A stretch of 56,093 bases of DNA, the filler included, from Sphacelaria rigidula (lineage: Eukaryota), in NCBI GenBank assembly GCA_964200075.2. It is 4 parts of 4 records of this genome, joined end to end, with 100 filler letters (N's around TTAATTAATTAA, not from the genome) between each part and the next. Parts side by side here need not be neighbours in the genome. Positions count along the whole stretch, not along the records: positions 14,052 to 27,999 come from CAXNAA020002561.1; 3 more parts are not named here. One strand, 5' to 3'. The notes beneath the pieces were generated by a model. It did no database searches. It had not been told where the DNA came from and saw only the letters and a list, made by a program, of their open reading frames with translations. Position numbers and translations under genes: made by a program. This document shows positions 3,025-35,574 of the stretch, piece by piece. The first letter of the stretch is position 1; each line of letters opens with the position of its first letter.

Positions 3025-3036
3025 TGTAGACTGCGG

Positions 3037-6413: not shown

Positions 6414-6719
6414 GTAAACGTTTATTCAGGGAACCCGCTGAATTCTGGCAAAAAATAAATTTCAGCTGCGGACAGTCTCTACAAAAACATTTTTTTATTG
6501 TACACAGACAGGTGTGCAGTCTGTAACGCGAGGCAGCTCGTTGCAGCTAGTTGACCGAAGGAATGGCTAGGTTTGCTGGAAGCATTGCGTGCAGCTAAGG
6601 AAGAATGGCAGCGCGTAGGAAAAGAGGTGGGAGCGATGCAGGCGATGAGGTGACGTGTCAATTTACTGAGCTTATGGCAGGTGGATCGCTAAAAGCAACG
6701 GAGTATGGACGGCATTTCA

Positions 6720-9255: not shown

Positions 9256-10612
9256 CGGGGCTGCTATGAAAGCTGTTGCTGTATCTATGATGCGAGGAGC
9301 GACGGTTCGAGTGGAAATGCTACTCTGCGGTGTGGACTAGAGATTGTAGCCGGAGAGTTTCTGTTTCTCAGGAGGAGCGCAGAAGAACTACAAGGAAGGT
9401 ATTACCTGAGGTGTTTACTGTTGTGGTGAGCGCCGAGTTGGGTACTGATTTTGAGCAGCAAGTGCTGAGGTGATGATGTGCTCGTTGAGAATGAGGAAAC
9501 ACATCATGACTGGTATTCGCAAATCGTTTTGAGAATGGTTCCAGCTTGTTATTGTGTGATTTGTGGTCATGGTCGCGCATGAAACATGGTTATTGAGCGA
9601 GTATGATCGTATCGCGTGTGCAGGGTGAAATTCTGGCGGACACCTGGATATTTGGGATGTGTGTGTTGTGCTGATCTGGCTGGCACGAACGATGCATGGT
9701 GTTTGCTGCGAGGAAGGTGGCATTGCATGTGCTGGGTTAAATGATGGCATGCATGTATGGAATGTTCGCTACATTATGTTAGAGCGCATGGTATCTGACG
9801 AAGAGTTAGGGTGAGGCAGTTTTCAATATACTACTGTATGCTGGATGAGGTGAACGTCGTATATTCCTGTTCACAGTTCTCTGTGTGCAGTTCGTGGGCA
9901 CTGACTGTAGGAGAGGGTGATTGCTGCTGTTGGGGTTAATGAGCAGTAACTAAGAAATGCGTAGGCCCGTATGTGCGCAAGGAAAACGCTAGTGTTTCTT
10001 GGGGTTGAAAGTAAATGATCTTTAGCTATGGAACGTCTTTTGAGGAAATTTTTTATTCCCGCCTGGAAGGATCATGTGGATGGAGTATCCGTTTGTCGAA
10101 GGGAGCGGTGAGGGTGAGCTGCAAGTCTGTTGGGACATGAACTGCATTTTATATCGCGGTTCATCGATCAATGGAATACGACGATCCTGAATCCAAGTTG
10201 GGATATCATATTTGGGCGCTTTCTTGGGTGTACTCGGTGAATCGAGTTTGAGAACGACATCACTACGGGTGATCAATGATGGCGGAGGTCGAGGTCCTTT
10301 CGCCGTTGTTAGATTGGTATGCATGACCTGAAAAGTGCTTCGAGTCATGGCTCTCTTTTCAGTATGCTTATGAGTTGAGTGGCGCAATGAAGAAGCCTTG
10401 AAGCTCTCACGAAGAAGAGGAGTGCGATGCATACGTTTTCACGGAGTTAAACAAGTAAGAGACCAGCTGCGCTCTAAACGTGTTGGATACTTATTTAATT
10501 CTAGTTTCAGGTATACTGCTTGGCTGTTGCACTCCGTTACGCAGGTATTGAAGGTACGAAAGAGCAATTTGTATGTTTAACGGTATGGTATGCGAGAGAC
10601 GAACTGTCACGA

Positions 10613-10642
10613 TGTTGTTGTTGTTGTTGTTGTCGTTGTTGT
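10613..10642. repeat. (TGT)n microsatellite
   Basis: About 10 TGT/TTG units visible directly. Confidence 0.9.
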
Positions 10643-10841
10643 CTTCACATTAAAAGCCGTTCCGATATCTGCGCGGTACATTGGTACTGGGCATCTTACG
10701 CGGACGCCTTCCGATGGCTTCAGAATTTGAAGTTCGTCGTTGAAGTTCGAGATTTTATGCGGGATTGGAGTCAGGAAACTTGTTTGAAAATTGGGCGCCA
10801 GCTATCGCTCCGTGACTCAAAGCGATGCAAATAGCGTGATT

Positions 10842-11384
10842 TGTGACGGTTTAGGAGACAACCAACTAGACTACTGATTATTCAGCGACTACTGACCAGT
10901 CCTCGCTGGATAATCAGTAGTCTAGTTGGTTGTCTCTTAAACCGTCACGAAAGTTAGTCGTGGGGGCTTGATCCCCGCCCCTTTCACTCCGAAGAGGGCG
11001 ACTCCCCTTGCCAGCGCTCTATCGACTGCCATCAAGAACCTCGAGTGTTGTCTCTTCTCACCGTAACCTTGAGTTACTCGTCTTCCCCACTGATTTCCAG
11101 AGTGTGTGCACTGGGGTCCCTAGCAGTCAACTCCAAACATAGCCACCAGGCTATACCCCACCCTTTTTCTTTGGGTCAATTTTTTTCAGAGCTCTTCTCT
11201 CCTCTTTTTTTCTTCAAAGAAGGTGCGTCCGACGGGAATCAAACCAGCGACTCAGTTTTGTGACGGTTTAAGAGACAACCAACTAGACTACCGACCAGTC
11301 GGTTCAAGAGATAACCAACTAGACTACTGACCAGTCAGCGCTGACTGGTCAGTAGTCTAGTTGGTTATCTCTTAAACCGTCACA
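10842..11384. mobile_element. 543-bp TRIM-like element with palindromic terminal repeats and 4-bp TSD (GATT)
   Basis: Repeats 10842-10949 and 11259-11384, each TGTGACGGTTTA...TAAACCGTCAC(G/A). GATT at 10838-10841 and 11385-11388. Host B sequence is continuous across it. Confidence 0.85.
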
Positions 11385-11555
11385 GATTGCGTGTTCATTG
11401 TGGACGTTTTGGATCCCTTGCGATTTGTTCGGAAATTGGACAAGCTTGTACGGCTGTTATGTGAAAATTGACGTTAGATTTCGATAACAATGGTGCCCGA
11501 GTTGATGAAGCTCTATATTGACTACTTGTTGGTAGGAAGCGAGCTTTGGGGGTGC

Positions 11556-11837
11556 TCTAGACTGCGGGCAACATTGTTACCGTGGTTAGGTACATGACTG
11601 CAGTGAATAAAATGCATAGCAGGCGTTTATAGTCTGGTCGACGGATAACCGGTTCGAGAGTATGATCAGTGGACTCCGTGTTGTATGCTGTTTGCACACG
11701 ACGTCCGCCGGTCACTTCCCATAACAAAGACTGTGTGACTGTGAACAGCAACTGTCTCGAAGTCTCCAAGCCCTAGTGAGGGAGAAAGCCCTTGGAGCAG
11801 TCTTGTGACCTTATTCTGAGTCCAGGAGGGCTCTATA
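11556..11837 (+). repeat. LTR family B, intact 3' copy
   Basis: TCTAGAC...CTCTATA, follows the G-rich PPT and aligns with 3025-3036 plus 5700-5960. Confidence 0.85.
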
Positions 11838-12791
11838 GTCCGACAACCTCCCGAAGCTTATCAACGCCGCTCGTCGACATACTCGCCGACATACCCTTGT
11901 CCGCGGCCGCCTGTAGCGCATGATCCAATGCAACACGGCGCTCTGCCAGCTCCTCCTCTGGAGTCATGTTCATCTCGGGACCTAGCAACATCAATCGCTC
12001 AACGGAGGGATTCACAGGCTCCTCTTGTCCACCTGGATCCTGAAACGCCTCAATCGTAATGCTCACACGCCTAGATTCTCGGAATTCAGGCGTATCCACA
12101 CCTCTCACCAACACGTTACTTGAGTGTGCGTATGCGTCCAGCCCACTATACACGTCAATGCCCATGGCCTCCAGCGTACCGCTGCCGATGATCACCACAT
12201 TATCAGCACCTGGCATGACCGCGTAATGACACGGATTCAACACCACCGGCCCCCAGCTGGTGTGCAGAGCGGTGCGCAATAGGCAAATCTCCGACTGCAT
12301 ACTCCGTGCATTACCATCAGCTAGTTTCAACGAGTGTGCACGAGCCATACTCGTGACAAGTGGCACATCAGGGAACACTGCTTGCAAGTGGGACGCCACT
12401 TTTCCAGACATGATAGTGATGCCAGCCCCGGAATCCAAAGCGGCAGTAACAGGGCAAACGTTCTTGGCTGCGGAACCAGGAACGGACAAGTCTGCCCGGC
12501 AGCATCGCTGCTTGCGGTCAACCACCACACCTTCAGGCTGTTAGTCTGCAACCTCAGCGGTGTGCAGACCCCGCCATACTGGCATTGTCTGAGACGTCCA
12601 CTCCTGAACCGGTCGCGACGGCAGTTGGGGTTGAGCTGCAGGAGCTGGAGCGGGTGGCTGGGGCGGCACCATGCTACTCAGACTACTACTAGCACCCCCT
12701 TGCGTTCCATCCCCAGAGAAAACAGCCCGTGTGGGAGCAGGACCTTTACTACCCCCTCGCTGACCATGGGCCAATTGCTGCTGCTGCTGCT
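11838..12791 (-). mobile_element. Degenerate Ty3/Gypsy gag C-terminus and aspartic protease, 5' part of G1
   Basis: ORF 11833..12528 has AALDSGA (DSG protease motif) and is clearly homologous to 7209..8219. Its end joins the RT N-terminus at 3024. Confidence 0.85.
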
Positions 12792-13749
12792 TTTGGACTT
12801 CTGTCACTCAAGATCAGATTGACATGTGGACTCCTCCCACGACGGCCACATGGACTTCAGCAGCTTCACTTATTCATGAATCAACCCTCAGCACTGTGCA
12901 GGAGAACAGGACCATAGCCTCTCTGCACCAGAGTAGCAAGCCCGGCTCTACTCATCATGGAGGTCACCCATCACACAGTCCGGCAATCAGACCCGCAACT
13001 CAACGTACCTATGTCCCCAGCCTCAGGTAACAATGGTGACTAGAGTCTACAGCACCCCCAAAGCTCTCTACTACCAACAAGTAGTTACATCAGAGCTTGA
13101 CAAACTCAGACATCATTGGTGCCTGATGGTACCGTCGTTTCCCGCAAAGATCATCAATCTTTTCCGCTGCTGTCGACAACAGCTCCATACAAGCTAGCCC
13201 TACTTCCGAACAACTCGCAAGAGATCCCAAGAAAATATCGTCCATCATGAACATGCAATCACCCTACTTGCACCACTTCGAGTAACAAAGCGACAGTCAG
13301 CGCTAACTTCTCAAATCTTCGCCCAAAACAGGTCTCTTGATTCTTCATCGGCACAAAACCGGAAATGTCAGCAAACGTCAAATTCCAGAGCATTCGTGAC
13401 TCATCGTCCCTCTCATCCGAGACAAGGTGCTTCTCAACACACAAAATTCACTCTTTGTACGTTAAACACCTGCGTAACGGAGTGCAACGGCCAAATGATA
13501 GATCATCCTCACGCTAGAAGGAAATGAGCACCCAAAACGTCTAAAACGCACCTGGCCTCTTGCTTCTGCAACACCGTAAAATACGTATGTGCAATCGCAT
13601 GCCTCCCCGCCGTCAGAGCTTCAATGCTTCAACTTGCCATCATTTCGTCAAGACAATCAAAGGAAAGCCATGACTCGAACCGCTATTTAAGTCATGCATA
13701 ATAATCCAACGACGGCGAACAGACCTCGACCTCCGCCATCATTGATCAC
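12792..13749 (-). mobile_element. Second family-A element (3' LTR 12792-13051 plus internal 3' region) inserted in G1 gag
   Basis: Reverse complement of the A LTR, PPT and internal ~4790-5435; inserted in the CAG (poly-Q) tract. Confidence 0.85.
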
Positions 13750-13951
13750 TGTAGACCAAGTCACACGATTGTTACCTAAGAATAGGGGCATTGTAGGTGG
13801 AGTTGCGGGTCTGATTGCCGAACTCTGTGATGGTGACCTCCATGGCGAGTAGAGCCGGGCTTCCTACTCTGGTGGAGAGAGGCTATGGTCTTGTTCTCCT
13901 GTACTATGCTGCGGGTGAATACATAAATAACTAAAGCTGCTGAAGTCCATG
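13750..13951 (+). repeat. LTR family A, copy 4 (truncated by contig end)
   Basis: Starts TGTAGAC and aligns to LTR A; interrupts the preceding A element. Confidence 0.85.
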
Positions 13952-14051: not shown

Positions 14052-16861
14052 TGTCGAGGTTTGGGCTACGACCTTTGGGGGTGATGCAATGACCCAAGAA
14101 CTCAATCTTCGTGGCGCCAATGCGGGATTTGGAGGGTGCGAGTTTCAAGTTGTGTTGTTCAAACCGATTGAAGAATGATGCCAACTGTTCGACGTGTTCG
14201 ACCGGTGTAGAATCGTGGCACACCGCATCATCAAGGTACATATGGCATTTGGGCAATCCATCAGTTACACGGAACATTACACGTTGAAACGCACCTGGAG
14301 CTCCGGCGGCACCTTGTGGTGTAACCAACCATTCGTACAAACCTGATAGCGTGCAAAACGCCGTCAGTTCAATGGAATTTGGATCCATCACGAGCGGGTG
14401 GTAGCCAGACTGCATGTCAAAGTTCGAAAATACTTTACCCCCGTCAAGAGAGTCAATAACTTCATCAGTCCGTGGAAGTGGCAGCCGGGTGATTGTGGTG
14501 ACAGCGTTCAATCGTTGATATTTTGCCATTCTTCTTACGGACGACTACTAAAGGTGAGGCCCACGGAGACGTCGAGTGCCGAATCAAATCGGCAGATAAG
14601 TAACCATCGAGAATTACCTGGATTTTATCCGCTAAGAGGGGGTTCGTACGGTACGGGCGCATAGCGATAGGAGGAGTGCCATCAGGAATCTTGATCTCAA
14701 ACGGTGTCGTGGTACATCGACCTAAATCCAAGGGTGCAGTAGAAAACCGTTCAGAGTATCTACTCAAGATGGATCTCAATCTATCGATTACAGTGGGTGT
14801 CCAACCATCGCCAGATCTATCAAAAACAATATGCCGTAAGTGAGGGGAAATGTCATCCCACAAGTATTGAAAACTGGCGCGTTGTTTTGGAGAAAATCTA
14901 TCCAGTAATACGGTTAGGGGTTGAGGTTCAGGCGCATCCGGTGGATTTGTCACCACCATGGGTTCAGACATGTGTAGCGGAGGGGGGGCCGTGGATTTCG
15001 GGGGGTCGGTCGGCGAGTTGTTGTTCGCCGGGGGGCACACATCTGACAGGGCGGTTCGTATGGGAGGCGCTCGAGCATAACCCAACAACTGACCGTTGAG
15101 TATATCGAAACATGCAGGGGACGTGAGGTAAATGGCCTGCCTCCCTTCGTGGACAAAGACTTCGGTCTGTTCAAACGGACCAACCTGTGCTTGGTCAGGT
15201 TTGAACAACTCGACCAGATAATATCCTGTGAGGGCGAGCGATCCATTGCGTCTCACGAGGTTCACTTGTATTAGTTGGGGTTCACAAGAAAGCGAGGTTA
15301 CCGGTTCACTAACGTAGTACAGACGGAAAGCATTACCTGTTTTCGTGGGATCATCCTCATAAGCATGAGCTCCCGAATCAGTGTCGAAGTGACCCAGAGA
15401 CAAATTTCCTGCTACTGAACGGTTCGGGACAGGTGTGTCCGTCGTATACGTATGTGTGGAAAAACGAAGCCAACTATCTCGACCCAACAAAACATCAAAA
15501 GGCATGGGACCGTCGGGCACTATTAGTGCCCATACGGACAACCGAGGAGTGGGAGTAGTATCCTGGTAGAATTGTACACTTAGTCTCACCGATTGATTGA
15601 ACGTAAGAGATGTGGAGGAACCAAGCCCACCAAAAACACGAGGGTGCACGGTGGACAGACGGTGCTTGTCCGCCGCGCCCGCGTTGATCATCTGTTGCCA
15701 GCAGCTGGCTGTAGTGAACGTTTGGGGTGAACCAGAGTCTGGTAGTCCAAGAGCTATCAAATGACAGCTTGCACGCGCTCCACTATGTAAACCTATCTTG
15801 GTCGTAAAAGAAGCATTATCCAGAGTTGCAATACCACTGACGAGATAAGGCCCGCATTCGGGGATGACATGTAACCCATCCCGCTTCGCGTTTTGAACAA
15901 AGGTGCTAAAATACATCCGTTGATGATCCTGTGGGACAAGCTTTTGGTCGGAAGGATGGTGCGTGCATGGAGTGTCAGTGGTTGTGCCTGAAAAATTGGC
16001 CTCATCAGTCGAGGGTTGAATCTCATATACTGCAACGGAGGGGCGATGCCGGAGAAGGGCAGTTGTCGTGGTTGGACCCGACAACTGATCTGTGCGTGGT
16101 GTTTCACCCTTATTGGCCAACAGAGGGGGAGAATCGTCAGTGTGAAAAGCGGGATCAATTACATTATCCAGCTTGGTCGGAACAGGGGACGATTCATCGT
16201 GGCGCGGTGTTGAGTTTGATACGCCAATCAACTCAATATTACCATCACTAGATAGGGCCAACATGGGAGGTTTTGGAGACCATTCGTCAGGACGCGGGGT
16301 TGGTAAAGCGGGACTGTTCAACCCGGCGTCTATTAAAGGGGCCAACGTGGGTGAGTTAGGAGACGAGTCGTCTTGCGTAACACTTTGTTTCCCTGGTGAC
16401 GAACACACGATTGAAGTGCCTTCATGACTAGGATGCAAACGTCCATGAGTTGGCGAAGTTTCTGTCCCTACAGACGGCAACGCTTTATCGCAAAGGGGTT
16501 CTAATGTAGTGCACGCGGGGTGGTCAGGGAGCAGTAACGATCTCTTCCAAATCTGGGGAGTACCGGCCTGTTCCACTCTAAGGTTTTCATCTGTCTGAGC
16601 CCACACGCAATCTCCTGCGTGGAGTTCACATGCGCTTGCTACATCAGGATGATCTACATGATCATCTGGAGGAGCTCGCCTCTGGTGACGCGTGTAGCGC
16701 ACGAAAGGGTCGGCGGCTCCAGGAGCTATTGAAATGAGTTCTTGGACAGTCGAACCTAGGTCACGCCCTTGGTGCACCACCTGAGTCGCTGTCACTTGAG
16801 GTTTCATTCCAACCCGCTGAGCGACGGCAAGCATGGGTTCTTTGCGGTTGCGACCTTTCAA
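14052..16861 (-). pseudogene. pol N-terminal part: long linker, aspartic protease, RT (frameshift near 14530)
   Basis: ORF 14465..16861 (LGLPDSGSPQTF, VLLGRD, SPWASPLVVVRKK); ORF 13996..14529 (FDMQSGYH, PQGAAGAPGAFQ, YLDD). Confidence 0.9.
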
Positions 16862-17499
16862 GGAATAATTACACTCATCAAATAAAAGGGAACCGGGTAC
16901 CGTAGTTTTTGCGGAACTCGGTAGGGTGTTTAGCCGGGCACTTGAGCAGTTGGGGGGTGCTCGAGTGTGAGGCTTCGAATTCTGTGTTCTCCGATGAACG
17001 GTCGAAGCAGCAGTGTCTATCGTACCAGAAGGTATTTCGACTCCTGATGCGTGAGAAACTGCACTACAGGACTTCCTCTTCTTTGAAGGGAGGGGATTCG
17101 ATTGAATGTGCTCAGTACTTGATGAATGTAAAGCTGGGTGATCAAATCAAGGGTTCAAACGTTGGGGTTGGTCACTGCTCAATTGATAGCCATGCAACGG
17201 TGCACGGGCTTCGACTGCCTTGGAACCCTTCAAGGCAGTGTCAGCATATTCAGGGATCCCACACCATATGGTTGAACCCGCGGTTCCCACCGCGGATTCG
17301 TGCGTGTGATGTGTGTGACCTGGCCGAGCGAAAAAAATGGTTGACATCAAATTGTTGGATACTTCTGCAGTAAATTACCGGTCATTGTTCATTTCTAATT
17401 GTGAGATTGTACCAACCAATGAGAAATGAACTACACAAGTACAAAATACACAGGCAGGTGGCGGGGCTTAGGTTTTGGGCTAAGCCACGCGTCCTGGGT

Positions 17500-18596
17500 T
17501 ACCCCACTGTATGCTATTTGGATCTCCGCAACTTGTAGAACATTCCCAAAAGGTTGTCAAGTTGTGAGGTGAGCATCAGTGTTGTGTGGGTACCGCCCTG
17601 GCGGGGTTCAGCCGCGGCACTAGGCCCATTCATGTGTAAACGTCTACCGTTTTGTGAATGGGTCAGTGCATGTGGTTGAAAGTGTGCCAGGTCAGGTGGG
17701 TCAGGTGGTGAATCAGCTGTCGCCTTGGGGGCGGAGCAGACGACCGTACGAACGCAGTTGTGATTGCCAGACTTGCCAACATAGTCCAAAATGAAGAGAA
17801 GCTTCGAAGTGTCTTTTTGTCAACAGCTTATAGTCTTGCTCCGCAATTTCCAGATCCTTCGTGGATTTGCGTATCGCGCGTTCTAGTTCGTTTTGTTCTG
17901 TTGGCTTTTTGGGGGGTGGACATCTACATTATCGGAGGCCTGAGCGGGCTCCTGGACCCTTGTAGATACCTGTAGGCGGGCAAATTCCAACTCTCTGTGC
18001 TCAAGTTCCATGTGGTGTGCCAGTTCGTTACTGCGGATCTGATCTCAGCACGCTGTCTGTTCAGCCTCTGAAACGTTGTACCAATGGCGCGGGGGAATGA
18101 AGGCTGGACGTTTTTGCCGAAGCCGGTCGTGTGTTTCGTCATTCGTGGGCAGGTATTGTTCCAATGTGGGGGACGTATCAAAAGCCAGAGTGGGGCGATC
18201 AGAGTATTCAGCACCGGTTTGGGTGCGGAGGTTATCGCCAGGAAAGGTCTTCATAACATCAGGGCTCACGTGGAGAGATGCCATCTGAAAAGGAAGCGTG
18301 GGAATACTGTCAGCGTTTTGGGTGGCTGCTTGGTGTGTAGTGGTATGTTCACTGAGGTAGGAGTGAGCATGGTGAGAGCTACGGTCCATATCGAAATCTT
18401 CAGTCAGATCTCTGGAAATACGTCCTGTAAAAACGCTATCGTCGTCGTCGAAACAGTCTGGTTTGTTGTTGTCAACCGTCTGACTACGCATGGTTTGGTC
18501 TGACTTGTACGGTAGCTCACCATTGTCTGTAGGGATCGCACCGTTGTTCGTGACATCGTGCTCCGATGAAGTCGAAGGGCGGTTGATATCAGACAT
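17500..18596 (-). pseudogene. Putative disrupted gag-like/ORF1 region
   Basis: ORF 18045..18596 from ATG, with in-frame read-through into a coiled-coil-like stretch (ELAHHMELEHRELEFARLQ). Sits upstream of pol; no diagnostic gag motif seen. Confidence 0.35.
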
Positions 18597-21500
18597 TTCT
18601 TGTACACCTGCGCAATTTGCGCCAAACCGGTAACGTAGAGATGCAGAGGTCGAAAGGTGGAAGTTTCGAAGCGGACTTGAGCATCGTTGTTGAGGACTGA
18701 GGCAGCGTGAACAAAAATAAAAAGGAACAGAGTGGCAGAGTACTGTCGACAGTCGATCGACATGCAGTTCCGCGCACTCCGCACATGCATGAGGTCTACC
18801 ACGTTGTCAATCAGGTGCAGACAAGAGAGAAAAAATATGCACGTCGAAGGCACACAACAAACCGTAGGTGCGTGTGTGTTGGAATAAATTGTAACAGCAA
18901 AAGACAAGAAAACGAAGGTTGTCACAAGCAACAGACATACAGTGTCTGTCACCAGCGCAACAGCGCAGTAACAAACCTGCTTGCCAAGAAGGAAGAGACG
19001 TGTGGGATGCAGCGAACAGCAACGTCAAACGCTCAGTTCTATTTTGAGAACACGTTGAGGCTGGAAAAACAAAATACCTACCGGATGCCGTGTTTCCAGA
19101 GGCAATACCAGCGCAGCTGGCGATACTTATTACGGTACCGCGTAGTTCGCTGAAAATAGCCGAGTCGGGGGTCAGTGACGTATCCTCGTGCAGGTAAGCA
19201 GTCAAAAAATGTACAAGCGCAACCGTAATACAAGTATGTAGTGCAGTACAACAGCAGCGTACAAAGCACCAGACAGAAAAAATGCTGTGTGGCACAGTAC
19301 AGTACATATGGTCTTCGCGTGGGGCAGCGGGGTGGTCGGCAGTGCAGTACGATGTTATTTTGTTCGTATCACATGAAGAAAATCCGAAACAGCGCTATAC
19401 CCGCGTCGTGTTCATATCTACAATGCAATATAGATGACTTCGTTCAGATAGTGCAGCAGTACCCAACGTATGCTACAGCACGGTACCTCACCGTCCGCAA
19501 GATATTACCCGCTGAGGTCATTTGTGATCCAAACGGTGCTGTACTGTTGTCAGTACTGCAATTCGGAACAATATTTCAACGGGAAAGGCACGTGGCCTTC
19601 TGAACAATCAAGTATGTACTGTAATGTGTGTTGGTGGGGCGGCAATCAAACTGTAGTGTACCCTGGTGCCGTGTGAAAGTGAAAAGAGTACAGAGTCGAG
19701 AGCTTGTGCATAAGTAACACGAGCCTCGCACCTTGCCGTGTGCAATCATGTTCGTTTACATGCAACATCTTTGGTCCGAGTCCATCATGTCGCATCGATA
19801 TAATTCGGTGCACATGGTGGATCAACGTTCCGTGTTTGGACAAAAGGAGTCGTATGTACAGCGGGCGGTGATTGAAATAGCCCGCGAACTCCCCACCTGC
19901 AAGCCTGAGTCGGCGTGTGTTGGGACAAACTTCCTTTGTACTGCCAAATTTGCGCCATCGATCAAGCATCGATGAAAGTATCGGACACTTCGTTGGAATG
20001 TTCCGTGTTGGCGAAAATAATTCATTGCCTGTACAGCGGGTTGAATTTGATACAGCCTGCGCCCGCTCTGTCTAACAACAGAGACCGGTAGTGGGGCACA
20101 CATCGGTCGACTCGGTGTTTCCCGAGCCGAGGAGGAATGCGGAGGGGTGTTGGATCGAAGGGGAGAATAAAGCGTTGTGGCTAGAGCGAGCGGGTTGAAA
20201 CAAAAGTAACTCGAGCGGCACAGATGCCAGGGGCAGTTGTGTGGAGGGATAGAGGAACGGGTGTACAAGATGTATGTAGTTGACGACACTGTTATTTCTT
20301 CGAACCGGGTACAACGGCACGAAAGAGGGTCCATCCGTCCCAAGGTTTTGACATGCCCCGTCAAGCTGGTCTGTGGATGGGGACGTGGTTTGTTGTGCAG
20401 CAAAGGATAGTTCGCGGACACGGGCGCGCCTCAAACGCCTGAGCGTACGCTCATCAATGATCGAGGCGGAACTGAGTATTTTGCGAGACGTTGTTGGCCT
20501 GTGGGCAAACCAGATAAAATCTGGCAGTAGCACGTGGGCAGCTGTCGTGAAAAAAACAACCCCTCACACCCACACGTGTACAATTATCAAGTGAAATCAA
20601 GGACTGAAATTACAAAGGATTCAAAAGAACAGACGTGAGCTTGTGTTCGGCGGATGCGTGCGCAGCAGCCGACTAAAGAGAAACCGTACAGCTTGGGATA
20701 ACAAGCTACCTCTGAAGCCCCACAATGTGGCGGTATAGGCAATACCGCAAGCAGGAAAGCCGTATACGCCGAACGCAAGCAAGCCACACCCTTGTGAGGT
20801 GTCTGCCGGCGGTCCTGGATTGACTTGTTACACTCAAACTGTAGGTTTCTCTCGCACAAGGCACTCGTCAACAGCAGACAGCTGTAATTGAAAGTAAGCA
20901 CCGAGCTCTTTCGATACAAGGAAACACCAATTGACACCAAGGGGTTATGATACACGTTACTCACTTCTTGAGAACGGCTTGCCAGCCACGAAGATGAGAC
21001 GCCGCGTAGAGCAGATGAAAAGATGGTGGTCCTTCTTGTGATTAGTTCTACGGTAAGTCCTTCTCAGGCAGGTGAGACGCAAGTGAGCATCGTAGGCGAT
21101 GCGGCACACGATTACCTTCAAAAGCTTCTAGCTACGTATACAATTTTGTCATATAAATACCACTCAGCGTGGCGCACTGTACCTTAAGCCAATCAAAGCT
21201 GTAGTAGCAGCAGGTACACGCGGCTAATCGGGTAAAATCCTGTATCTACCTTCAAGCCGCTGTGTCAACAATAAAAAGGATCCATATCCTGCCTCATACT
21301 AACACACATTCGACTAGAATCTTTCCATACCCGCTGGTCGTTTCTAGGGACCGTCTGCATATCCACATGGAACTAGTTTTAATTCAGACACTCAGACATT
21401 CACCATCACATTAGCCCACCCTGGATCGTTCAAGTGCAGTCCCTATTTAGAAGGGACGAACTTGCATCGAGCCACACCTCTCCCACACCACAGAAAAACT

Positions 21501-21759
21501 GAGACTCCATTTGAAGATCGAGTCCTCTTCAGTACGGGGAACGGGAAGGGGTGATCGACACAAAAAAATCAAGAAAATACGAACACAATCACAAAGCAAA
21601 GAGAATAAAAAAAAATCGAACCGATGCAATGATTCGGTGTCCTCATGTTCCGTGAGTTCTTCAGACGGGGTCATGGGAAATAAAAATAAAAAGTAAAGAA
21701 ATAAGATCCAAAATCAACAATCAAAGCATATACCATAAAATGCAGTGTCTCCAGAATTG

Positions 21760-23894
21760 TCGTAAGCATTTCCGTGATAGACACAGGAAATTAGAGACCA
21801 ATCATTGAAACGATTATCCTACCCTCCCATAAATATATAATGAATAAATAGTTCCCTCTTTCCCGAATGTCCGATTTGTTTAAGGTTATTGGTAGAAAAA
21901 CAAGCAAGCCCGCCAAGGCATTATATCACTTCGACAACTAAGTTCATGCTAATCACTCGTCCCTGTCAATCAGCAAAGCAAACAAGATACAGCCGAGTTC
22001 GTCGCGGAAATGGTAGTTTCCCGCGAAAACCATACGTTGGTAAAAAAGAACAAGTAGAATGATACGGACATATCAATCCGTTTGACGTGAGTTAATTGTC
22101 GGTACATGTTTGTGAGAACAACGACCTGCTTGGGACATCTGGTTGATGATCCAGTCGTACAGCATTTCTTTTTTCACACGACGATACGAAAACAACTGAC
22201 CGGTGTGTGAGGTCAGGTGCCCGTACACGTCAAAAGAAACGTGCTGGGCAATGCACAACCTTCGGGCCTACTACGTAGTTCCGGGGCGGATTACCTATCA
22301 CATTTCTGAACCACGACAAATACACAGGACAGAGAGGACCAATGCAGCCCACTCCTCACAATATTTGCCCGTTCGGACTAAAACGAGACTCGCCCGAACA
22401 CAAACTGGAGTAAAACCCATAGCCGGTCGTAACGTCACGTTACTTCGTCCAATAATCCCTGCTAAAAACAAAACATCACCCACCAATTTCGGGGGCGGGT
22501 AATTGTACGCAAAAACTGGTGAAAGTTACAGAAAAACATAGCGAGTGGCGCACTCTGAGCCTGTAGGCTGTACCAACGGTCGAGTATCGACATGGCGGAA
22601 CGGACACTTCCGAAAGAGCGATCTACCTTATCATGATACGTGATGGTCCTGTATGAGGAGACATTCGCAACCGATCTTACTGCGACTTCAATAACAATTC
22701 TTCAACACCACTATGTACGACGCGGGCAGTGGTGGCCTCGTTGTAACTAATAAATCACCAAAGTATAAATCATCGCGTCGCATTACCCGTGACCCTCCTA
22801 TAAAGAAGGTCGGTCACATGCGGCAGGACTCGCAAAAAAAGTAGGCCAAGTGTTCTAGACTCGAGGGTCAGGAACGTTAAAACACTGGTGGCGAAATTCC
22901 CGACATAGACGCAGAAACCAAAACGAAAATAAATACAAAACCAGGGGCACGCTGGGCAACAGCGAAAACGAAAATCCGCAACATAAGGCAGAAAAACAAC
23001 ACGTGGCAACCGTCCTTGTAAACGGGAGCAGTTATCGTGTGTATGAAGCAAGCAGGGCCAACCATTTTAGCCAAGAAGGTCAAAACATTTCAAGCAATCC
23101 ATGTCAATATAAAATCAACGGGGTACGCACACAAAAAGTGGACACGTCATTACCGATCCTGCTGGATGAAGCGGTATGCGTGTACGGAGCGTTTGGGCAC
23201 GGGCGCAATTATCCCAGACGGGGAGATCAGGTATATGCAGCGCTTGCTCCTAAAACTCTGAACCGAAAAGACAAAAATAAAAAAATAAAATAAAAAACCG
23301 ACAACATATGACACAAAAAGGCACGTCATCAACGGTCCCGAAGAGGGAGGCGGCATTTGCGTGCGGAGCGATTGAACAAAAGCGCAAGTATTCCAGACGT
23401 GGGCGTCAGGTATGGCTAGCGCTTGCTCCGTTAATTCTTCCATCAAAACAAACAAATCAAAAATGAAGACCATGTAATAACAAAGCAAGACAAGGTGTGC
23501 GTACAAGAACACAAAATGAAGACATAAATAACTCGTGGCAACTGTTCCGGTGGACGGAATAGTTGTGAAGGTACGGCGCGGAGGACGGAGGTTCAAGGTT
23601 CCAGACTCGGGGTCAGGAATGGAACGGTCGTCACTTGTACTTCGCCAGATGAACCCAGAAGTACCCAAGAAAAGCATCCATTGAAAACAAAAAATCGAAG
23701 ACAGAGCACGAGGCGAAAAGAAAAGAAGACAAAAACAAAAAAAGACAAAGACAACAAGTCAAAACAATTGGTGCAAAGGGAAAAAAAATCGAGACACAAA
23801 ATCAAGGCCAAAGCAACAAAAAACATACACAAAAAAATACAAAATATGAAGACAAAAGACCGAATACAAAATACGAAACAGACACTTTCTACGA
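21760..23894 (-). repeat. Putative single ~2.1-kb LTR
   Basis: On minus: G9 PPT then CTA/TCGTAG at 23894. Ends TTACGA at 21760, followed 6 nt later by TGGAGACACTGC (PBS-like). No second copy to confirm boundaries. Confidence 0.5.
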
Positions 23895-23910
23895 TAGCCC
23901 CCCCCCAAAA
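23895..23910 (-). promoter_or_regulatory. Polypurine tract (G9)
   Basis: TTTTGGGGGGGGGCTA on minus, downstream of the integrase; the same context recurs at 55160-55185. Confidence 0.6.
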
Positions 23911-24294
23911 CCAGCTAAAAATGTCATTATAAAAATGACCATACAACGCCTACTGTTCGGGTTCAGGCTGCATGAAGCGCCTCATATTGGCGATGTTGGC
24001 TAGAACAAACCCCAAGTGTGTGAATTCCCAGCTTCTCGTTGTGCTCGGCTTTTCTCATTCGATATACGTGAAGATTTCGCCTCCCAAAACCGTGCACTTT
24101 TTTGGGGGGGGCTATCGTAGAAAGTGTCAACACGATATCAACCACTACCAGTACGGGGCTAATCAGTACGAAAACAAATAAAGGGGGGAAGGAGGGGGAA
24201 CACATGGTTTTCCAACGACGCTGTAATGCAAGACAAGCGACTCGAACGCGGTACACTACGCAAGGTGAATGGAGAAGCAGACTCGGATGCGGCA

Positions 24295-26290
24295 TCATGA
24301 GTCATCTGCATCCCAAGCGGTGTCCGTGTTCCGTAGAACGGCTGTTTCGAGTTCGCCTTGGTCGTGTCTTTGGAGGCACCAGGATCCCCTCCGAGCTGGC
24401 GGCTCATCGGTGTAGTACGCATCATCCAAGCGAATCTTAAGGGGTCTTGGGTCATCAAGGAAACGGATAAAGTAGGAGTGGTCAGGTGCAGGATCGACCA
24501 AATGAATTTTTCCCGATCACCACAGTAAACCAAGGTCTTGTACCAAAAATACGCCCCTTTCGGCAATCGTTTTCCGTGAAAATACTGCATGTATTGTGAA
24601 CGCGAAAGAAGGCTATACCCTGTCACAACAAACCGCGCTGAGTGTTCACGTGCCAGTTCTCGAGTGGCAGCTCCCTTGCGCATCGACCGATATCTCTTAT
24701 TCAACGGGCGGTGTTGGACGGTGTCTCTTACCCAGTACAGCAATATTTTCCGACGAAAATGACGCAAATCAACCTCACGCTCCCATGTAACACGCATGAT
24801 ACCCTTCCAATGTGTTCGATACATTACCACTATCTTACCTCCACGACCACGAACCAGTTGATGACCCGAAATCCTATCTACCTCAACGCGTTCCAGGCGT
24901 GCGTCCGCATCCTCGACCGTCATATGATACGGCGGAGTTTTGATTGCATACTTGGTCAACACAACATACTTGCTAAGTCCTACCGGCAGTTGTTTGGGCA
25001 TGTCAGAGGAGTCATGAGCGGGGATACACGGTTTGCATCGTAGCATCGAGACGCGATTTTTCGGTTTCAAACCAGGTTCATCCGTGGGAAAATCTAAATA
25101 CAAAAGTTTCGCTCCCACCGGACTCTTGTCTGGTGCGGTAGCGCTCGGACCAACAGCTAAAATTTCCCAAGGACCAGTCCAATTCAAGGATAGCTCCGCC
25201 TTCAATACTTTATCCAAAGATGATAGTTTCGAGCTAGCCCCTTGATTGATGGTCTTCACATCGTTATACATCCATGCCCATTGGCCTACCTTCCACACCG
25301 GGCGGTTATGCACCACATCATCCAACATCGAGTTGCCCTGGCCACCTTGGCCAAATTGATTTGGTTCTGTTCTCGTACCACTTCATATGCAAGACGAAGG
25401 CGATTGCTAACCGACAAATGATACTCTGCAACATCACGATCCAGACTCTGATGTCCACCTGTACTTTTTGCGTTCGAATACCATTAAAGATAACCGAGTC
25501 ATGCGTCCCATATGAATTTCAATCGGCGACAACCCCGTAGCGGCATTAACTGAATTGTTGTAGTTCATCTGGACAAGGGGGTGCAGGTCCCAGTCCATCT
25601 GTCTCTCATTTGCTACAGCAGCAAGCATCTGCGCCATCGTATGGTTCACTCGTTCCGTTCCACCATTGGTAGAAGGATGACATGAACTAATGAAAATGCG
25701 ATGGGCACCCAAAAGATCACTGACGGCGGCAAAAAGTTTGCCCGAAAAATGCGGGCCGTTGTCAGATAATAAGTATTTGGGCACACCCCATAGTGGGATG
25801 TACATGTAGACAAGAATGTTGGCGGTACCTTCCGCGGTATAACTACTGGGGGGGACGGCGTGCATCACCACATGTCGATTAAATCTATCCGTAAATAACA
25901 AAATATCTTTATTACCACTATCCATCAGGGGCAAAGGACCAAAATCGTCCCACGAAATCACCTCACCAGGCCCGTTTGGGAGTGGCATGGAAACAATCGG
26001 CCAACGAACTGTTTGACGAGAAGTTTTTCGTGCCTTACACGAGAGACAACGCCTCACCCACCAACGGCAACATTGATCCATACAAATCCACCAACAAATA
26101 CGTTCCAACAACTGGAAGGTCCTAATGGCACCTATATGAGTCGATGCCTGTGAAAGGCATTCGTGTGGAACCCATGGGCGCAGTAGCATCGGGACATAGA
26201 TGCGGACGGGTTCATCACCTAGCAAGCGGGAATGTCGACTTGTAGGCTTCCCCCTGGGGAGGGCTGCTGTGGGCCGGCGAACTAACAGAA
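24295..26290 (-). pseudogene. Integrase with C-terminal chromodomain-like and Tudor-like domains (frameshifted)
   Basis: ORF 25434..26225 (THIG..CLSC, WDDFGP, LSDNGP, NGGTERVN); ORF 24159..25328 (WTGPWEI GPY/F motif; EVDRISGHQ..YRTHWKG..TWERE chromo-like). Confidence 0.85.
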
Positions 26291-27999
26291 CTATACCATC
26301 ATCATTCGTAGCATACCTTTCGTTGAAAGTTCAGTAACTTCATCCTGGGTAGGCGCTTTGAGATTCCCGACTTGCAAAAGGAATTCAGTTTCTGAGAATG
26401 GACATGGACAACCTTTCGATAGATAATGGATAGCTGATTTACAAGCAGGTTCTGCCTGTTGTTCCCGGGCCCAATCGGCGTGGGAGAAGAGAGTCAAACG
26501 TACATTGAATATACCATCTGTTGAAGCGTCTACTTCGTGTTGGGTCGGTTCGGGGCGGGGTTGGCACAAAGTGATGATTTCGGAATCAAGGGTGAGCCCA
26601 CCAGTTGGTGTACTCTCAGACGGGACGTTAACTGCTACTCCTGCGTCGAATAGCGTGGAGGGTGTTGTGGTGGTGTTTGCAATATCATCACCACTGGAGG
26701 GGGGCACAGCCGTGGTTTCGGCTATGGTTGGCAGGGGCGGCACGGTCGGGGTCGATTTCCTCGGGGGCTTGCGTCGCGGAGGCTGCGGGGGCGCAAGGAA
26801 ACTATCGTGGACCGGGGTGGGGGCAGGGGGGGGAAGGTCAGGACCGGATACGGCTAATTTGGTGGCCGTTTCGGCGGTCCGCCGTCCACGTGTCCTACTC
26901 GAAATCAAATCTCGACCTTCAGCTGGTAAGACGGAGTCAGCAAAGGACGGTTCTACAACTGCTGCGAAAACCATGCGCTGACCAGTTGCACGAAAATAAT
27001 CATAGCCAACAGTATTCGTAGATAGTCCATTCCATACTGAGTACAACGATTGAGGTTGCAAGCTGCCTAGAACTGATGCGTGGTCTGTGGTCGTCAGCCT
27101 ACCCATGCCTAAAGCCGGCGTTTCTCTCAGTGAAAGTGGTGTGTGGAGACCTGTATGTGCATTCCTGCTGATGAAATATACAACGTCTTCGGTGGGATAG
27201 GTGATACGTCCCATGGCAGATTCATCGATAGGTCGAGCTGGTGTGGGCAAGCGTGACAGGAAGTCGGCGTTTGCATTCTGGGGACCTGTGCGGTACTTCA
27301 GTTGAAAGTTGTAAGACGACAGGATTTCGAACCAGCGTTGGACCCTAGCGTTGTGTTCCGCCATTTTGGCAAGGCTTTTAAAGAGTTGTGATCAGTATGA
27401 ATCAAAAACGGGATGTCATACAAATACCGACGCAGACGTCGCACGCCCCAAACAACTGCGCCGGCCTCTTGTTCCATGACAGACCAATTCTGTTCATTCG
27501 GAAAAGTGGTGCGACTCAGACAAACAATGGGACGAACAGTACCATCGACTCGCTCTTGTTCTAATGTGCAGCCAAACCCAATTTTGGAAAAATCTGTGTA
27601 GAGCCGAAAAGGGCGGGAACCCTGCTCCGCGGCCGACCAGTCGGGGACGACGAGAATCTGCGTGCGCGAAAGGGTGTCCAGGAGGCGGCAGACGGTTTTT
27701 TCCATTTCCAATGTGAACACAAATTTCACCCTGTTTTTGAGGAGGGTGATGAGGGGTTCTAGCTTTTGGGCAAGGTTTGGCAAGTACTGTCTGTAGTAGC
27801 TTAGACCTCCCAACAAGGAACGCAATCGAGAAATGTCCCGTGGCATGGGCATATCGGAGAGTGCGGCGACCTTGTCGAGGTTTGGGCTACGACCTTTGGG
27901 GGTGATGCAATGACCCAAGAACTCAATCTTCGTGGCGCCAATGCGGGATTTGGAGGGTGCGAGTTTCAAGTTGTGTTGTTCAAACCGATTGAAGAATGA
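26291..27999 (-). pseudogene. RT C-terminus, RNase H and long Pro-rich RH-IN linker (frameshifted)
   Basis: ORF 27298..27969 (IEFLGH, LYTDFS, EQEAGAVVW, HTDH); ORF 26291..27364 (RVQRW..NANADFLSR). Confidence 0.9.
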
Positions 28000-28622: not shown

Positions 28623-31600
28623 CTCGTCGGCTGTTCAAGTTCCGTGTAGGCTTTACCGATGCGGTAGCACGCCTGGCCTAGGGCGGTCTTGTCACCCGCC
28701 GCCCTCGCTGCCCCTAGGCTCTTCACCCAGTACTCGATAGATCCGTGGTAGTCACCGGAGGACTCTCGCTCCTCCGCGAACTTGCGGTACACCTGACGAG
28801 TGTGAGTATGACATTTTGCTGTGCATATCCACGCACGTGGCTTTACGGCGAACCTGACGATTGATAGTTTGCCGTTGTTGTAGTCGTGTGTAGGCATATG
28901 ATACTCCTACCCGTTGCTGCTGCAAATGACGTATACACGTATACTATGTTAACTACAGCGCTCTACCTGATGCGAGAGACCTACCTGATTATTTTGGTTG
29001 GTTTGCACCGTGTGCAGGTACGCGCACATAGATTACGCCCTCCCAAATAATTGATTTCCAACTTCGGACAAAGCTCATTTTTCATTAAAAAAACAGCATT
29101 GTTCGGTGACAAATGCTCCCGTTTCTCAACAAACTATCCTAGTGTGCCCAGCCCGAATGTCCCGAGGGCGGCGAACGTTCATCATGTATCCATGAATCAA
29201 ACCCTCGACGATAGAACTGCGTGTTTGCGCACCTTGATCAGCTCATCATTGGCGATATTTTGCTCTTCATCAACATCCACAGCCTGAGCCAGCTCATGAT
29301 GTCTCTCGTGGAAGCTAGTCGCGGTTACGACATCTCCCTGTTGGCGGAAGGACATCACGTGCAACAGCGCGCAGATAGCAACATAGTGGGTTGGGAATTT
29401 CAACACAGCATTCTCCTGCGATTCGTTCTGTACTTCAGACGCGGGAGTAGCGAAGGCCAGATGTGTGTACCCAGCCTCGACGACAGTTCCTATACTCCGC
29501 ATCATGCCAGAAGAAAAGTTCAAGCAAAGGAGAACGGTATTACTGCAGGCTTTGCGATCTAAACTTCCAAAGCCCGAGCAGAACGTGTGAAGATACGCTG
29601 GATCAACCTCGCATTTGGGTGCCTGAACCCTACATCTCATGGCCTCGGGGGTCACGTGCTGTATTCAAGCCCACCATTTTGTCGTAGACCAATCCTAGGC
29701 GGTGGTTGGCGCTCATCTCCCCGCCCCTGTCGTTGGTAAGACGACTTATCTCCAGACACTTCTCGTGGAAGTAAACGCCAGTCTTGGGGTCGTTCATATG
29801 TTGGTAGTACTGTGCAAGACTGTAAACGGACGTGGAAAAATCACCAACACAGATGAAATTCAAAATTCGCAGTCTGTGGACGACAGAAACAAGTCTGAGG
29901 GAAACGTACGCGACAGATAATTCACTACACCGAGGGAACCACTCCGTATCTCGCACGTTTTCATCATTGCTACACCCGCTGACAATGTGCGCGCCAGTGT
30001 AAGAGCGCGGGAGATGAAGCACGCACGTACTGCTTTTGATGCTGCATGTGTGTTTCGTACTGTCTCGTGAGAGGAAAACGCAACAACGGTACGTAGCACA
30101 TCAGAGATAACTTTTTGCGCGGCGATTGCGGCAAGTATCAGGCATCACTGAAGAACGCTTGGTCAAGACCAGCGCGATTACAAGCTTAGCGCACGGTTTT
30201 CAGACAACAGGTGACGACTCGGGAGTTAACGTTACGGAGTACCTGGATGCCGTGCAATGTCGTGATAACCCGATACTTCCCCGTATCGAGGGTCGGCAAC
30301 AAGTATGGCAATGACGCTCCGGACAATTTCTCGGTGCGCCATATCAAAATCACAGACCGGGAGGGCAGAGCCGTAGGAACAGCAGCTGTCGTCCCCCATA
30401 GAGGGAAGGAAAAGTATGTCTAGCGCTCCCTCTGGCGCAAAAACTAGATGATCTCTGTACCAGATATTTCGTTGATTTCCTCTTCTAGGAGCTTCGAATA
30501 GCCGCAGAAGATCCGTATTCCATGAGTATGCAACGCGAGACATGACCACATCATACACAACGCGCATAATAGGCATACCTGTTATACGACTTGTAGACAG
30601 ACGGAGTGTCGCCTCGTCGGCGCGCACTTTCGGCCGCCACGAGGTTGTCTCTGATGAAAACCATCTCTCGAGCGGGTACGCTAATCTCTCCGGCGTCTTC
30701 CGTTGGATCGGCGATGTCTGGTGAATGTATGAGTAGTGGTTACCTTGAAGGAACAAGACTCTGGCAGGATTTTGTACTTATGCGAGGCCTGCGGCCGACG
30801 CCGAAGCGCTCAGCCAGAGAGATCTCAGGCAGGACAGTGTACTTGTCAACGATAGTAATTGAGGATGAGAAAGTGTAAAAAAGCGAATGACTTCCAGCAG
30901 CAGTCAGTCAAAGGGGGAGCGATATAGAAGTTGGAACGATGTGTTTCAGTTTCAACATTAGCGCTATACTCTAGTGATTTTCAGCTGACGGCGATTTTTG
31001 TCATTTGTTCGTAGCCGGCAATTTTCGTCAGTTTTTTTGCGTACCACCACTCATTCTAGTGAACGTGTGCTCTCGAAGTTCAGAGATGGCGAGATACTAG
31101 GGATTCGCTTCACATTCCGAAACGAAATGATATCTGCGCTCAATATTGGAAGACTACTGGGCTGAAGTGCAAGGGGGTGTTACTGGCCGATTTTTATCCG
31201 GAACGCATTTCTTTTCGATTCTAGCGCAATAAGCATGTAAAAATGAAATTGAAAAATGGTCTGTAAAATTACTCACGACGGCGATCGGGATGTTTCACCC
31301 TCTGTGCAGAGCGCGGTTGAGCAATCTTCGTTTTCGAGTACTTTTTTAAAGCTCGTTGTACAGTATCCTTCCTTGGCACTCGCAAGTGCTAGCGTCGATA
31401 GATATTGGGGGGGAAAGCAGGCCGTGCTCCGGACACAATCCTCAATTGGTGTGGTCAGGTTTTTACGCAGTGAGTAACTCGCTTATCAGGGGGTGTTATC
31501 AACCGTCAATTGTCGAAAAAACATAGGTTTGAGGGTCTGGCACAATAAACAGGTAAAAATTCCATAGAAAAGCATTTTTATTTGTTCACGAGAACGATCA

Positions 31601-35215: not shown

Positions 35216-35574
35216 TTAGCAGGCGCGGGGGGAGGGGGGGGGGGGGTGATCCTCACGTACGTCGCTGAAGATGGCTGCTTCAATAAAGGGGATCAATGTA
35301 CGGGTCAAATGTATGTAATATTCATGTTTGCAGGGCAACCCCGGGGCACCACTGTAGACATGGAGGGCATATGACATGTGGTAGTTTTCTCCACAAGATG
35401 CAGAAACTTGAGAGCTATCCCATCGTGGGGGGGGGGGGGGACCCGGGGGGGGGGAACCGGGGGGGGGGGGGACGAGGGATCTTGAGATGGGGGGGGTGTT
35501 GCCCTTGGANNNNNNNNNNGGGGGGGTGGCGGGGCGGGCGGGGGGGGGGGGGGGGGGGGGGGGGGGCAGCCGGG

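What the first reader, a model, noticed from the sequence alone, without database searches (positions are those of the whole stretch)
14052..27999. Whole contig closes into a 13,821-bp circle that is one giant Gypsy element with a single LTR
Seen: the first 127 bp equal the last 127 bp exactly, and the break falls mid-RT, so PR-RT-RH-IN-chromo is continuous across the junction. No host gene or second LTR is visible. Known: a 127-bp terminal overlap is what de Bruijn assemblers run at k=127 leave on cyclic paths, and one-LTR circles are a normal LTR-retrotransposon by-product. Inference: this is an abundant extrachromosomal one-LTR circle or a head-to-tail tandem array. Pol carries several frameshifts, so a circle would need trans-mobilisation or LTR-LTR excision.
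Basis: partly seen in the sequence, partly recalled or inferred. Interest (0 to 1): 0.8.

Follow-up and report, generated by a model that had tools for sequence, protein, structure and literature searches.

The report
Tandem Gypsy copy mimicking a circle
The contig does close on itself, but it is a decayed retrotransposon copy carrying a small DNA-transposon insertion and found at low depth in other samples, so it is most likely a chromosomal head-to-tail repeat folded into one unit by the assembler, not an abundant free DNA circle.

Summary
Confirmed: the contig (G000:C2561, 13,948 bp) has an exact 127-bp terminal repeat in late RT, giving a 13,821-bp unit with one LTR. Wrong: the LTR position. 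The LTR is w20726-21410 (685 bp, TG..CA, PBS-like motif on one side, PPT-position motif on the other). The copy is dead: at least six frame changes in pol, private changes spread evenly over codon positions, and a 3.4-4.2% terminal branch like its sister copies, so it is no family consensus. The PPT-LTR-PBS junction is a family habit: 13 of 96 PPT junctions show it, and C7495 holds two different units around one LTR. Three of four TSD-matched LTR pairs lack a 127-bp identical run, so LTR collapse is unlikely. Near-exact pieces of both halves occur in three samples of two studies at about 1-2x single-junction depth (weak, contig-based). Best reading (0.68): a chromosomal shared-LTR tandem of near-identical units of a chromodomain Gypsy element of a probable brown alga, likely from unequal LTR-LTR crossover. 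Free circle 0.06. No raw reads were available. Known structure in a new host group.

The parts
14052..14178 (.). 127-bp terminal repeat, copy 1 (assembler k-mer overlap, late RT)
   Evidence: exact only in C2561 among 40 scored of 235 candidates
27873..27999 (.). 127-bp terminal repeat, copy 2
14053..14544 (-). Reverse transcriptase core (YLDD motif); frame change near 14530 separates it from the upstream Pol part
   Evidence: PF00078 E 1.9e-21; tblastn frames
14465..17146 (-). N-terminal Pol ORF (893 aa) with a predicted aspartic protease (D-S-G motif, about w15437-15796)
   Evidence: ORF; 40-42% identity to Pol proteins P0006 and P0016; no Pfam protease hit
17147..20701 (-). 5' leader and probable decayed gag region; w19928-20574 is a subfamily-specific block
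   Evidence: family-wide homology; sense ORFs up to 371 aa in sister copies; no Pfam hit in C2561; gag identity is inferred from position
20702..20722 (-). PBS-like motif (begins TGG in element sense, 3 nt after the LTR end)
   Evidence: 101 matches in G000, 0 for the reversed control; no matching tRNA gene found
20726..21410 (-). The single LTR, 685 bp, TG...CA, shared between a 3' region and a 5' leader
   Evidence: copies leave into unrelated flanks exactly at these ends; 4-bp TSDs at sister copies
21411..21421 (-). PPT-position motif (GGGTGGGCTAA in element sense, imperfectly purine-rich)
   Evidence: LTR-PPT junction pattern has 96 matches in G000, 0 for the control
21422..23880 (-).
   Evidence: contiguous with pol in family copies; longest stop-free frame 226 aa or less in 29 aligned copies
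23881..24128 (.). 248-bp MITE with 30-bp terminal inverted repeats and AACA target-site duplication, inserted in this copy
   Evidence: 3245 candidates in G000; 4-bp TSD in 18 of 20 loci; absent at this site in the 29 non-self loci
24159..25382 (-). Integrase C-terminal part with a chromodomain-like segment (about w24732-24884)
   Evidence: PF00385 E 0.00089, 19.6 bits, below the 25.1 cut-off; weak PDB matches to Polycomb and MPP8 chromodomains, E 0.04-0.07; 46% identity to P0006
25434..26330 (-). Integrase zinc finger and core
   Evidence: PF17921, PF00665; 113 homologues, best 59% identity; those carrying a species name are Ectocarpus sp.
26291..27391 (-). Pro/Thr-rich linker between RNase H and integrase
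   Evidence: 28% identity to the same linker in P0006 and P0016
27298..27999 (-). RT C-terminus and RNase H, in frame with w14053-14544 across the junction
   Evidence: PF17917, PF17919

Best explanation
C2561 is one decayed, MITE-carrying copy of a 14.3-kb chromodomain-type Gypsy retrotransposon that most likely sits in the chromosome as two or a few near-identical head-to-tail units sharing one LTR (LTR-internal-LTR-internal-LTR), which a k=127 assembler likely folded into a single loop. Shown: the anatomy, the true LTR, the decay, the MITE, and the frequent shared-LTR junction in this family. Inferred: (1) the element inserted as a normal two-LTR copy with a 4-bp TSD, decayed and gained the MITE; (2) unequal crossover between its 3' and 5' LTRs on sister chromatids or homologues then duplicated the internal region, the reciprocal product being a solo LTR; (3) the assembler cut the resulting loop at a graph node in conserved RT. 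The host is inferred to be a brown alga.
For: PPT-LTR-PBS junctions are common in the family. They occur at 13 of 96 PPT junctions genome-wide, 12 of 95 without this contig. Among fetched loci with enough flank they are 6 of 28 PPT-anchored and 4 of 24 PBS-anchored, this contig included. C7495 holds two 3' regions only 87% identical around one LTR, a tandem that cannot be a collapse of one copy. C3406 is a second whole permuted unit, with ends 161/164 identical. Solo LTRs with 4-bp TSDs exist (C5211, C17999). C2561 is a single aged lineage: terminal branch 0.034-0.042, mean distance to 18 copies 7.6-7.7%, like theirs, and private changes fall 15:23:16 on codon positions 1:2:3. Both ends carry an allele that 23 of 26 other sequences lack, and no other scored contig has the exact 127-mer, so the two ends come from one lineage. 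TSD-matched LTR pairs are 95.5, 96.3, 96.7 and 99.0% identical, with longest identical runs of 85, 102, 111 and 326 bp; the 326-bp case (C7933) was assembled correctly. No near-identical solo partner turned up for the shared LTRs of C2561 (best 93-94%) or C7061 (best 90-91%). Weak support: long near-exact pieces from both sides of the LTR and the MITE junction occur in samples S1, S2 and S3 at even depth, at 1.9x, 1.3x and 1.0x the median depth of single structural junctions, as a polymorphic dimer would give.
Against: No raw or long reads were available, so no molecule spanning two units was seen. The entry and exit flanks of the array were not found. The held assembly stops near 5.45 kb (last contig 5,451 bp), so they may simply be missing. 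C7933 shows that a copy at most 92% identical to its relatives can still have 99% identical LTRs, so age alone does not exclude an LTR collapse. The depth ratios rest on hand-picked contig pieces, and the tool warns against reading them as copy number; other copies' pieces in X1 also lay at 112-122, which would put C2561 near one copy. C3406's end difference (3 of 164) is matched by 1 of 35 independent sequences, so it does not prove recent duplication. How an assembler would pass through the shared LTR of a mere dimer is not demonstrated.
Confidence: 0.68

Rival explanations
1. A single two-LTR chromosomal copy whose LTRs share an identical stretch of 127 bp or more (young insertion or gene conversion) was misjoined by the assembler into a loop plus an apparent solo LTR.
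For: C7933 has LTRs 99.0% identical with a 326-bp identical run although it is at most 92.4% like any fetched copy. Depth in S3 is about 1x, and in S1 it can be read as 1x if other copies' pieces are the baseline. Contigs under about 5.45 kb are not held.
Against: Three of four TSD-matched LTR pairs have no 127-bp run, and the fourth was resolved correctly. No contig has C2561's LTR termini exactly. The longest exact LTR match to another contig is 117 bp. None of the 15 shared LTRs with a scored alignment had a run of 127 bp with another fetched LTR over the 600 bp compared (maximum 114).
Confidence: 0.13
2. Two independent old copies lie in tandem around one LTR, as in C7495. The contig is the 3' half of one plus the 5' half of the other, and it closes only because both share one identical 127-mer in RT.
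For: Heterologous tandems exist (C7495, 87%). Unrelated copies sometimes share 127 bp or more with C2561 (167 and 135 bp at w25027). The junction lies in a conserved stretch (other copies 96-99%).
Against: Both ends carry a minority allele (3 of 26 other sequences). None of 38 other scored copies has the exact 127-mer, and the outer halves that should carry it were not found. The trees of the two halves were star-like and could not test this.
Confidence: 0.1
3. A real extrachromosomal one-LTR circle, made by LTR-LTR excision or by trans-acting RT, abundant enough to assemble.
For: The exact k-length closure and the single LTR with PPT and PBS on either side are what a one-LTR circle would look like. 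Active LTR elements make abundant circles in Drosophila (bioRxiv 10.1101/2022.09.25.509424, abstract and opening text).
Against: The copy cannot encode its own Pol and has decayed neutrally. No replication gene is seen. All scored family copies are 94% or less identical over long stretches, so no young helper was seen among them, though young copies could be collapsed into unheld short contigs. Its marker junctions recur at low depth in samples of two studies, as an inherited locus would.
Confidence: 0.06
4. A consensus of many dispersed family copies collapsed into one cycle.
For: The family is large (about 100 PBS and 96 PPT junctions).
Against: A consensus would sit at the centre of the star; C2561 has an ordinary terminal branch, a MITE that the other loci lack at this site and unique LTR termini.
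Confidence: 0.02

Closest known systems
Tandem LTR-retrotransposon structures with shared internal LTRs (rice and other plants, PMC11899658; Drosophila, PMC5932611 Fig. 1A)
   Same: Alternating LTR and internal region with one LTR between units; Gypsy superfamily; possibly polymorphic in unit number between individuals; proposed origin by illegitimate LTR-LTR recombination or by tandem products of retrotransposition.
   Different: Here the host is a probable brown alga, the array is seen only as a collapsed short-read loop without flanks or TSD, and the share of element ends that are shared LTRs (about 13-20%) looks high. Rice Nipponbare gave 28 clear tandems; the denominators are not comparable.
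Ectocarpus chromodomain-containing Metaviridae (Ty3/Gypsy) lineages, including ECR-1 and Gypsy-12_Ec32 (PMC12477816, PMC11541908)
   Same: PR-RT-RH-IN order with a C-terminal chromodomain-like segment; 4-bp TSD as for ECR-1; integrase 50-60% identical to Ectocarpus-labelled proteins.
   Different: About 14.3 kb against 6.6 kb for ECR-1, with a 2.5-kb non-coding 3' region and a long leader. Related Ectocarpus proteins often carry PF08719 (NADAR, name recalled), which was not detected in C2561. Lineage assignment among the four Ectocarpus Gypsy lineages was not tested.
One-LTR extrachromosomal circles of LTR retrotransposons (HMS-Beagle, bioRxiv 10.1101/2022.09.25.509424)
   Same: Identical sequence topology: PPT-LTR-PBS closed on itself.
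   Different: Those arise from active elements in de-repressed cells; this copy is defective, MITE-interrupted and apparently shared between samples.

Membership tests
Ty3/Gypsy LTR retrotransposon (Metaviridae) | Pol domain order PR-RT-RH-IN | tested here: met
   RT, RH and IN by Pfam in this order across the junction; PR by motif and homology only
Ty3/Gypsy LTR retrotransposon (Metaviridae) | LTR with TG...CA termini and a short TSD at integrated copies | tested here: met
   w20726-21410; 4-bp TSDs at C7933, three cross-contig LTR pairs and two solo LTRs
Ty3/Gypsy LTR retrotransposon (Metaviridae) | PBS complementary to a tRNA 3' end, and a PPT | tested here: inconclusive
   Conserved motifs at both positions; one pattern search for the priming tRNA gene found nothing
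Ty3/Gypsy LTR retrotransposon (Metaviridae) | gag gene | tested here: inconclusive
   No Pfam hit upstream of pol; decayed sense ORFs at the expected place
Ectocarpus-type chromodomain Gypsy lineages | Chromodomain fused C-terminal to integrase | tested here: inconclusive
   PF00385 E 0.00089 but below the cut-off; weak matches to solved chromodomains
Ectocarpus-type chromodomain Gypsy lineages | RT phylogeny places it in one of the described lineages | not tested
   Only an integrase homologue search was run; the curated Ectocarpus families were not fetched
Tandem LTR-RT with shared LTR | Internal region - LTR - internal region junction | tested here: met
   PPT and PBS motifs on either side of one LTR in C2561 and 12 other contigs
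Tandem LTR-RT with shared LTR | Array begins and ends with an LTR and is flanked by a TSD | not testable with these tools
   Flanks not in the held assembly; no long reads
Extrachromosomal one-LTR circle | Physically circular, exonuclease-resistant DNA | not testable with these tools
   Needs bench work or raw reads; only assembled contigs were served
   About 1-2x single-junction depth in three samples, contig-based, and those may not be the source; leans against

The most novel reading that the evidence does not exclude
This brown-algal Gypsy family builds head-to-tail shared-LTR arrays at an unusually high rate (about one element end in six) because it re-integrates one-LTR circles or concatemers and mobilises even dead, MITE-carrying copies in trans; C2561 is such a circle or its freshly integrated concatemer.
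Probability: 0.15. Interest if true: 0.7.

Novelty: new member of a known kind. Interest (0 to 1): 0.3.

Why it matters
As a circle it would have been striking; as a collapsed tandem it is a known structure and a caution: a k-length terminal overlap with one LTR does not show an extrachromosomal circle. What is worth keeping is the family-level result. About 13-20% of this family's element ends are shared LTRs between two internal regions, in a probable brown alga. A search for 'brown algae' + 'tandem' + 'LTR retrotransposon' + 'solo LTR' found no paper. The passages returned for 'tandem' in the two Ectocarpus papers (12 of 21 places shown) concerned satellites and simple repeats. If long reads confirm the rate, the family offers many independent events for deciding between unequal crossover and tandem insertion, a question left open in PMC11899658.

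Tried and rejected
Collapsed family consensus: rejected. The argument that an aged copy must have diverged LTRs: weakened by C7933 and kept only as a tendency. Trees of the two halves, to detect a chimera: star-like and uninformative. Search for the priming tRNA gene: no match, genome incomplete. Pfam for protease, gag and any extra ORF in the leader and 3' region: no hits. A single-copy depth baseline from a host gene in the same runs was not obtained, so structural junction depths were used instead. Depth handling: junction rows with zero depth in a run were dropped (22, 15 and 8 values kept for X1, X2, X4, from tables that were themselves cut), and only long pieces with at most 2 differences were used (5, 3 and 3); short exact pieces of high depth were left out as shared by many copies. 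No RNA holder was listed; X6 is only guessed to be RNA and was not used as evidence. No loose end fell exactly at either LTR terminus; with short contigs this says nothing. Two look-ups in earlier findings returned nothing. A literature search for circular-contig artefacts of LTR elements listed nothing relevant by title. The count of 16 shared among 99 LTR copies is not used as a rate, because shared-LTR contigs had been fetched on purpose. The 30 loci per set are the first exact matches by contig number, so they lean to long contigs.
Full report
Observation. The window is four contigs of about 13.95 kb joined by N44-TTAATTAATTAA-N44 linkers. The finding is the whole of G000:C2561. Its first and last 127 bases are identical and the overlap is no longer, giving a 13,821-bp unit; the three neighbouring contigs have no such overlap. 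On the minus strand Pfam finds RT at w14053-14544, RNase H at w27298-27999, the integrase zinc finger and core at w25437-26330, and a weak chromodomain. The 42 codons of the overlap are read in the same frame at both ends. Against two related Pol proteins the reading frame changes at least six times, near w14530, 27380, 26315, 25465, 25340 and 24500. The integrase has 113 homologues, the best at 59% identity, and those carrying a species name are Ectocarpus sp.. Three of the 13 listed runs are algal metagenomes. I infer a brown-algal host. That k=127 de Bruijn assemblers leave a k-length overlap on cyclic paths is my own knowledge, not tested here.

The LTR. None of the 29 non-self loci from a search with w21000-24400 leaves the element at 21760, and most continue into pol, skipping only w23881-24128. 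That skipped piece is a 248-bp MITE with 30-bp inverted ends, about 3245 candidate copies and a 4-bp TSD in 18 of 20 loci, AACA here. Family copies leave into unrelated DNA at w21410 and at w20726, which defines a 685-bp LTR with TG..CA ends. A PBS-like motif lies on one side and a PPT-position motif on the other. Sister copies have 4-bp TSDs. The linear element without the MITE is about 14.3 kb.

What kind of copy. The family is large and old: best long matches are 83-94%. In two RT/RH segments from 18 other contigs the tree is a star, and C2561 has a terminal branch of 0.034-0.042 and a mean distance of 7.6-7.7%, like any other copy. Its private changes fall 15, 23 and 16 on codon positions 1, 2 and 3, as in neutral decay. 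It is therefore one dead lineage, not a family consensus. Its LTR termini are matched exactly only by itself, and its closest other LTR is 93-94%. Both ends of the contig carry an allele that 23 of 26 other sequences lack, and none of 38 other scored copies has the exact 127-mer. It does share 167 and 135 identical bases with two other contigs at w25027, so it was probably not an isolated, unbranched cycle in the graph.

Is the PPT-LTR-PBS junction real? It is common in the family. Genome-wide patterns gave 96 LTR-PPT junctions and 101 PBS motifs (100 listed), and 13 of the 96 have a PBS 618-851 bp away across the LTR, 12 of 95 without this contig. By alignment, 6 of 28 PPT-anchored and 4 of 24 PBS-anchored loci with enough flank are shared, this contig included. 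C7495 holds two 3' regions 87% identical around one such LTR, which cannot be a collapse of one copy. C3406 is a second complete permuted unit, with ends 161/164 identical, although 1 of 35 independent sequences is as close. A misjoin at k=127 needs an identical run of 127 bp between an element's LTRs. Four TSD-matched pairs are 95.5, 96.3, 96.7 and 99.0% identical, with runs of 85, 102, 111 and 326 bp, and the last (C7933) was assembled correctly. A second shared LTR (C7061) also has no close partner (best 90-91%). Against this, C7933 shows that a copy at most 92.4% like its relatives can have 99% identical LTRs, and contigs under about 5.45 kb are not held, so a collapse cannot be excluded.

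Other samples. Only assembled contigs were served, and no run held more than 0.40 of the words. Long near-exact pieces were found on both sides of the LTR and across the right MITE junction. In X1 they lay at depth 121-139 (five pieces), in X3 at 44-48, in X2 at 41-46 and in X4 at 14-29. The median depth of single structural junctions in the same runs is 69, 33 and 16 for X1, X2 and X4, giving ratios of 1.9, 1.3 and 1.0. This fits an inherited locus of one to two units and does not fit an abundant circle. It is weak: the pieces were hand-picked, the tool warns that contig depth is not copy number, other copies' pieces in X1 lay at 112-122, and X1/X3 may or may not be the source sample.

Mechanism. 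Most likely (0.68) the element inserted as a normal two-LTR copy, decayed, gained the MITE, and was then duplicated head to tail by unequal crossover between its LTRs; the assembler folded the near-identical units into one loop and cut it in conserved RT. The steps after 'decayed and gained the MITE' are inferred. Rivals: a misjoined single copy (0.13), two independent neighbours closing by a chance shared 127-mer (0.10), a free circle (0.06), a family consensus (0.02).

Comparison with what is known. Tandem LTR-RT arrays sharing internal LTRs are described in rice and other plants, mostly Gypsy and polymorphic between accessions, with origin by illegitimate recombination or tandem insertion left open (PMC11899658; abstract and sections 10 and 13 read). 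Ectopic LTR recombination giving shared LTRs is drawn in PMC5932611 (one passage). Ectocarpus has several chromodomain-bearing Gypsy lineages unrelated to chromoviruses (PMC12477816, passages). One of them, ECR-1, is 6.6 kb with 4-bp TSDs (PMC11541908, passages). Abundant circles come from active elements in Drosophila (bioRxiv 10.1101/2022.09.25.509424, abstract and opening text). Intra-element gene conversion, which could keep LTRs alike, is the subject of PMC5751070 and PMC7251063 (search listing only). One search for tandem LTR elements in brown algae found no paper. No supplements were read.

Verdict. The closure is real in the assembly, the LTR was misplaced, and 'abundant circle' is not supported. 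This is a new member of a known kind, a shared-LTR tandem of a dead Gypsy copy. The point of residual interest is the high share of shared-LTR junctions in the family. Interest 0.3.

Noticed in passing
window 23881-24128 and G000-wide: Abundant 248-bp MITE family (about 3245 candidates, 87-93% identity among the best 40) with 30-bp TIRs GACAC...GTGTC and a non-specific 4-bp TSD; similar MITEs lie in or beside other copies of this Gypsy family (C3820, C581, C14930, C6695). Superfamily not assigned.
   Followed up: partly
G000:C7933 (L268 899-7510): Internally deleted 6.6-kb derivative with both LTRs 99.0% identical and a perfect GAAC TSD, yet at most 92.4% like any fetched copy: recent trans-mobilisation or LTR gene conversion.
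   Followed up: partly
G000:C7495, C3406, C7061, C21498, C18417, C26753, C24984, C13709, C19429, C7381, C16059, C21204, C3062, C5739, C13109: Further contigs with one LTR between a 3' region and a 5' leader; their LTRs are 70-95% like their nearest fetched LTR, suggesting many independent origins.
   Followed up: partly
window 1-13951 (G000:C2560): Nest of fragments of a different Gypsy family on both strands (RT w2358-2933, integrase w893-1525, weak zinc knuckle w7203-8219, weak protease w11836-12540), with long direct and inverted repeats and near-perfect hairpins at w10840-10951 and w11259-11384.
   Followed up: no
window 29630-30100 and 35510-35519: Exon-like ORF with a weak TPR match (E 0.0065), and an N10 gap inside a poly-G tract in the third contig.
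   Followed up: no
window 52223-54305: Exon-like ORFs resembling polymorphic-membrane-protein repeat genes (Chlam_PMP E 0.12, weak).
   Followed up: no
window 19928-20574: Leader block found only in a small subfamily (C22821, C24984, C26753, C7495, C27089, C2561); four of these six show a shared-LTR junction.
   Followed up: partly
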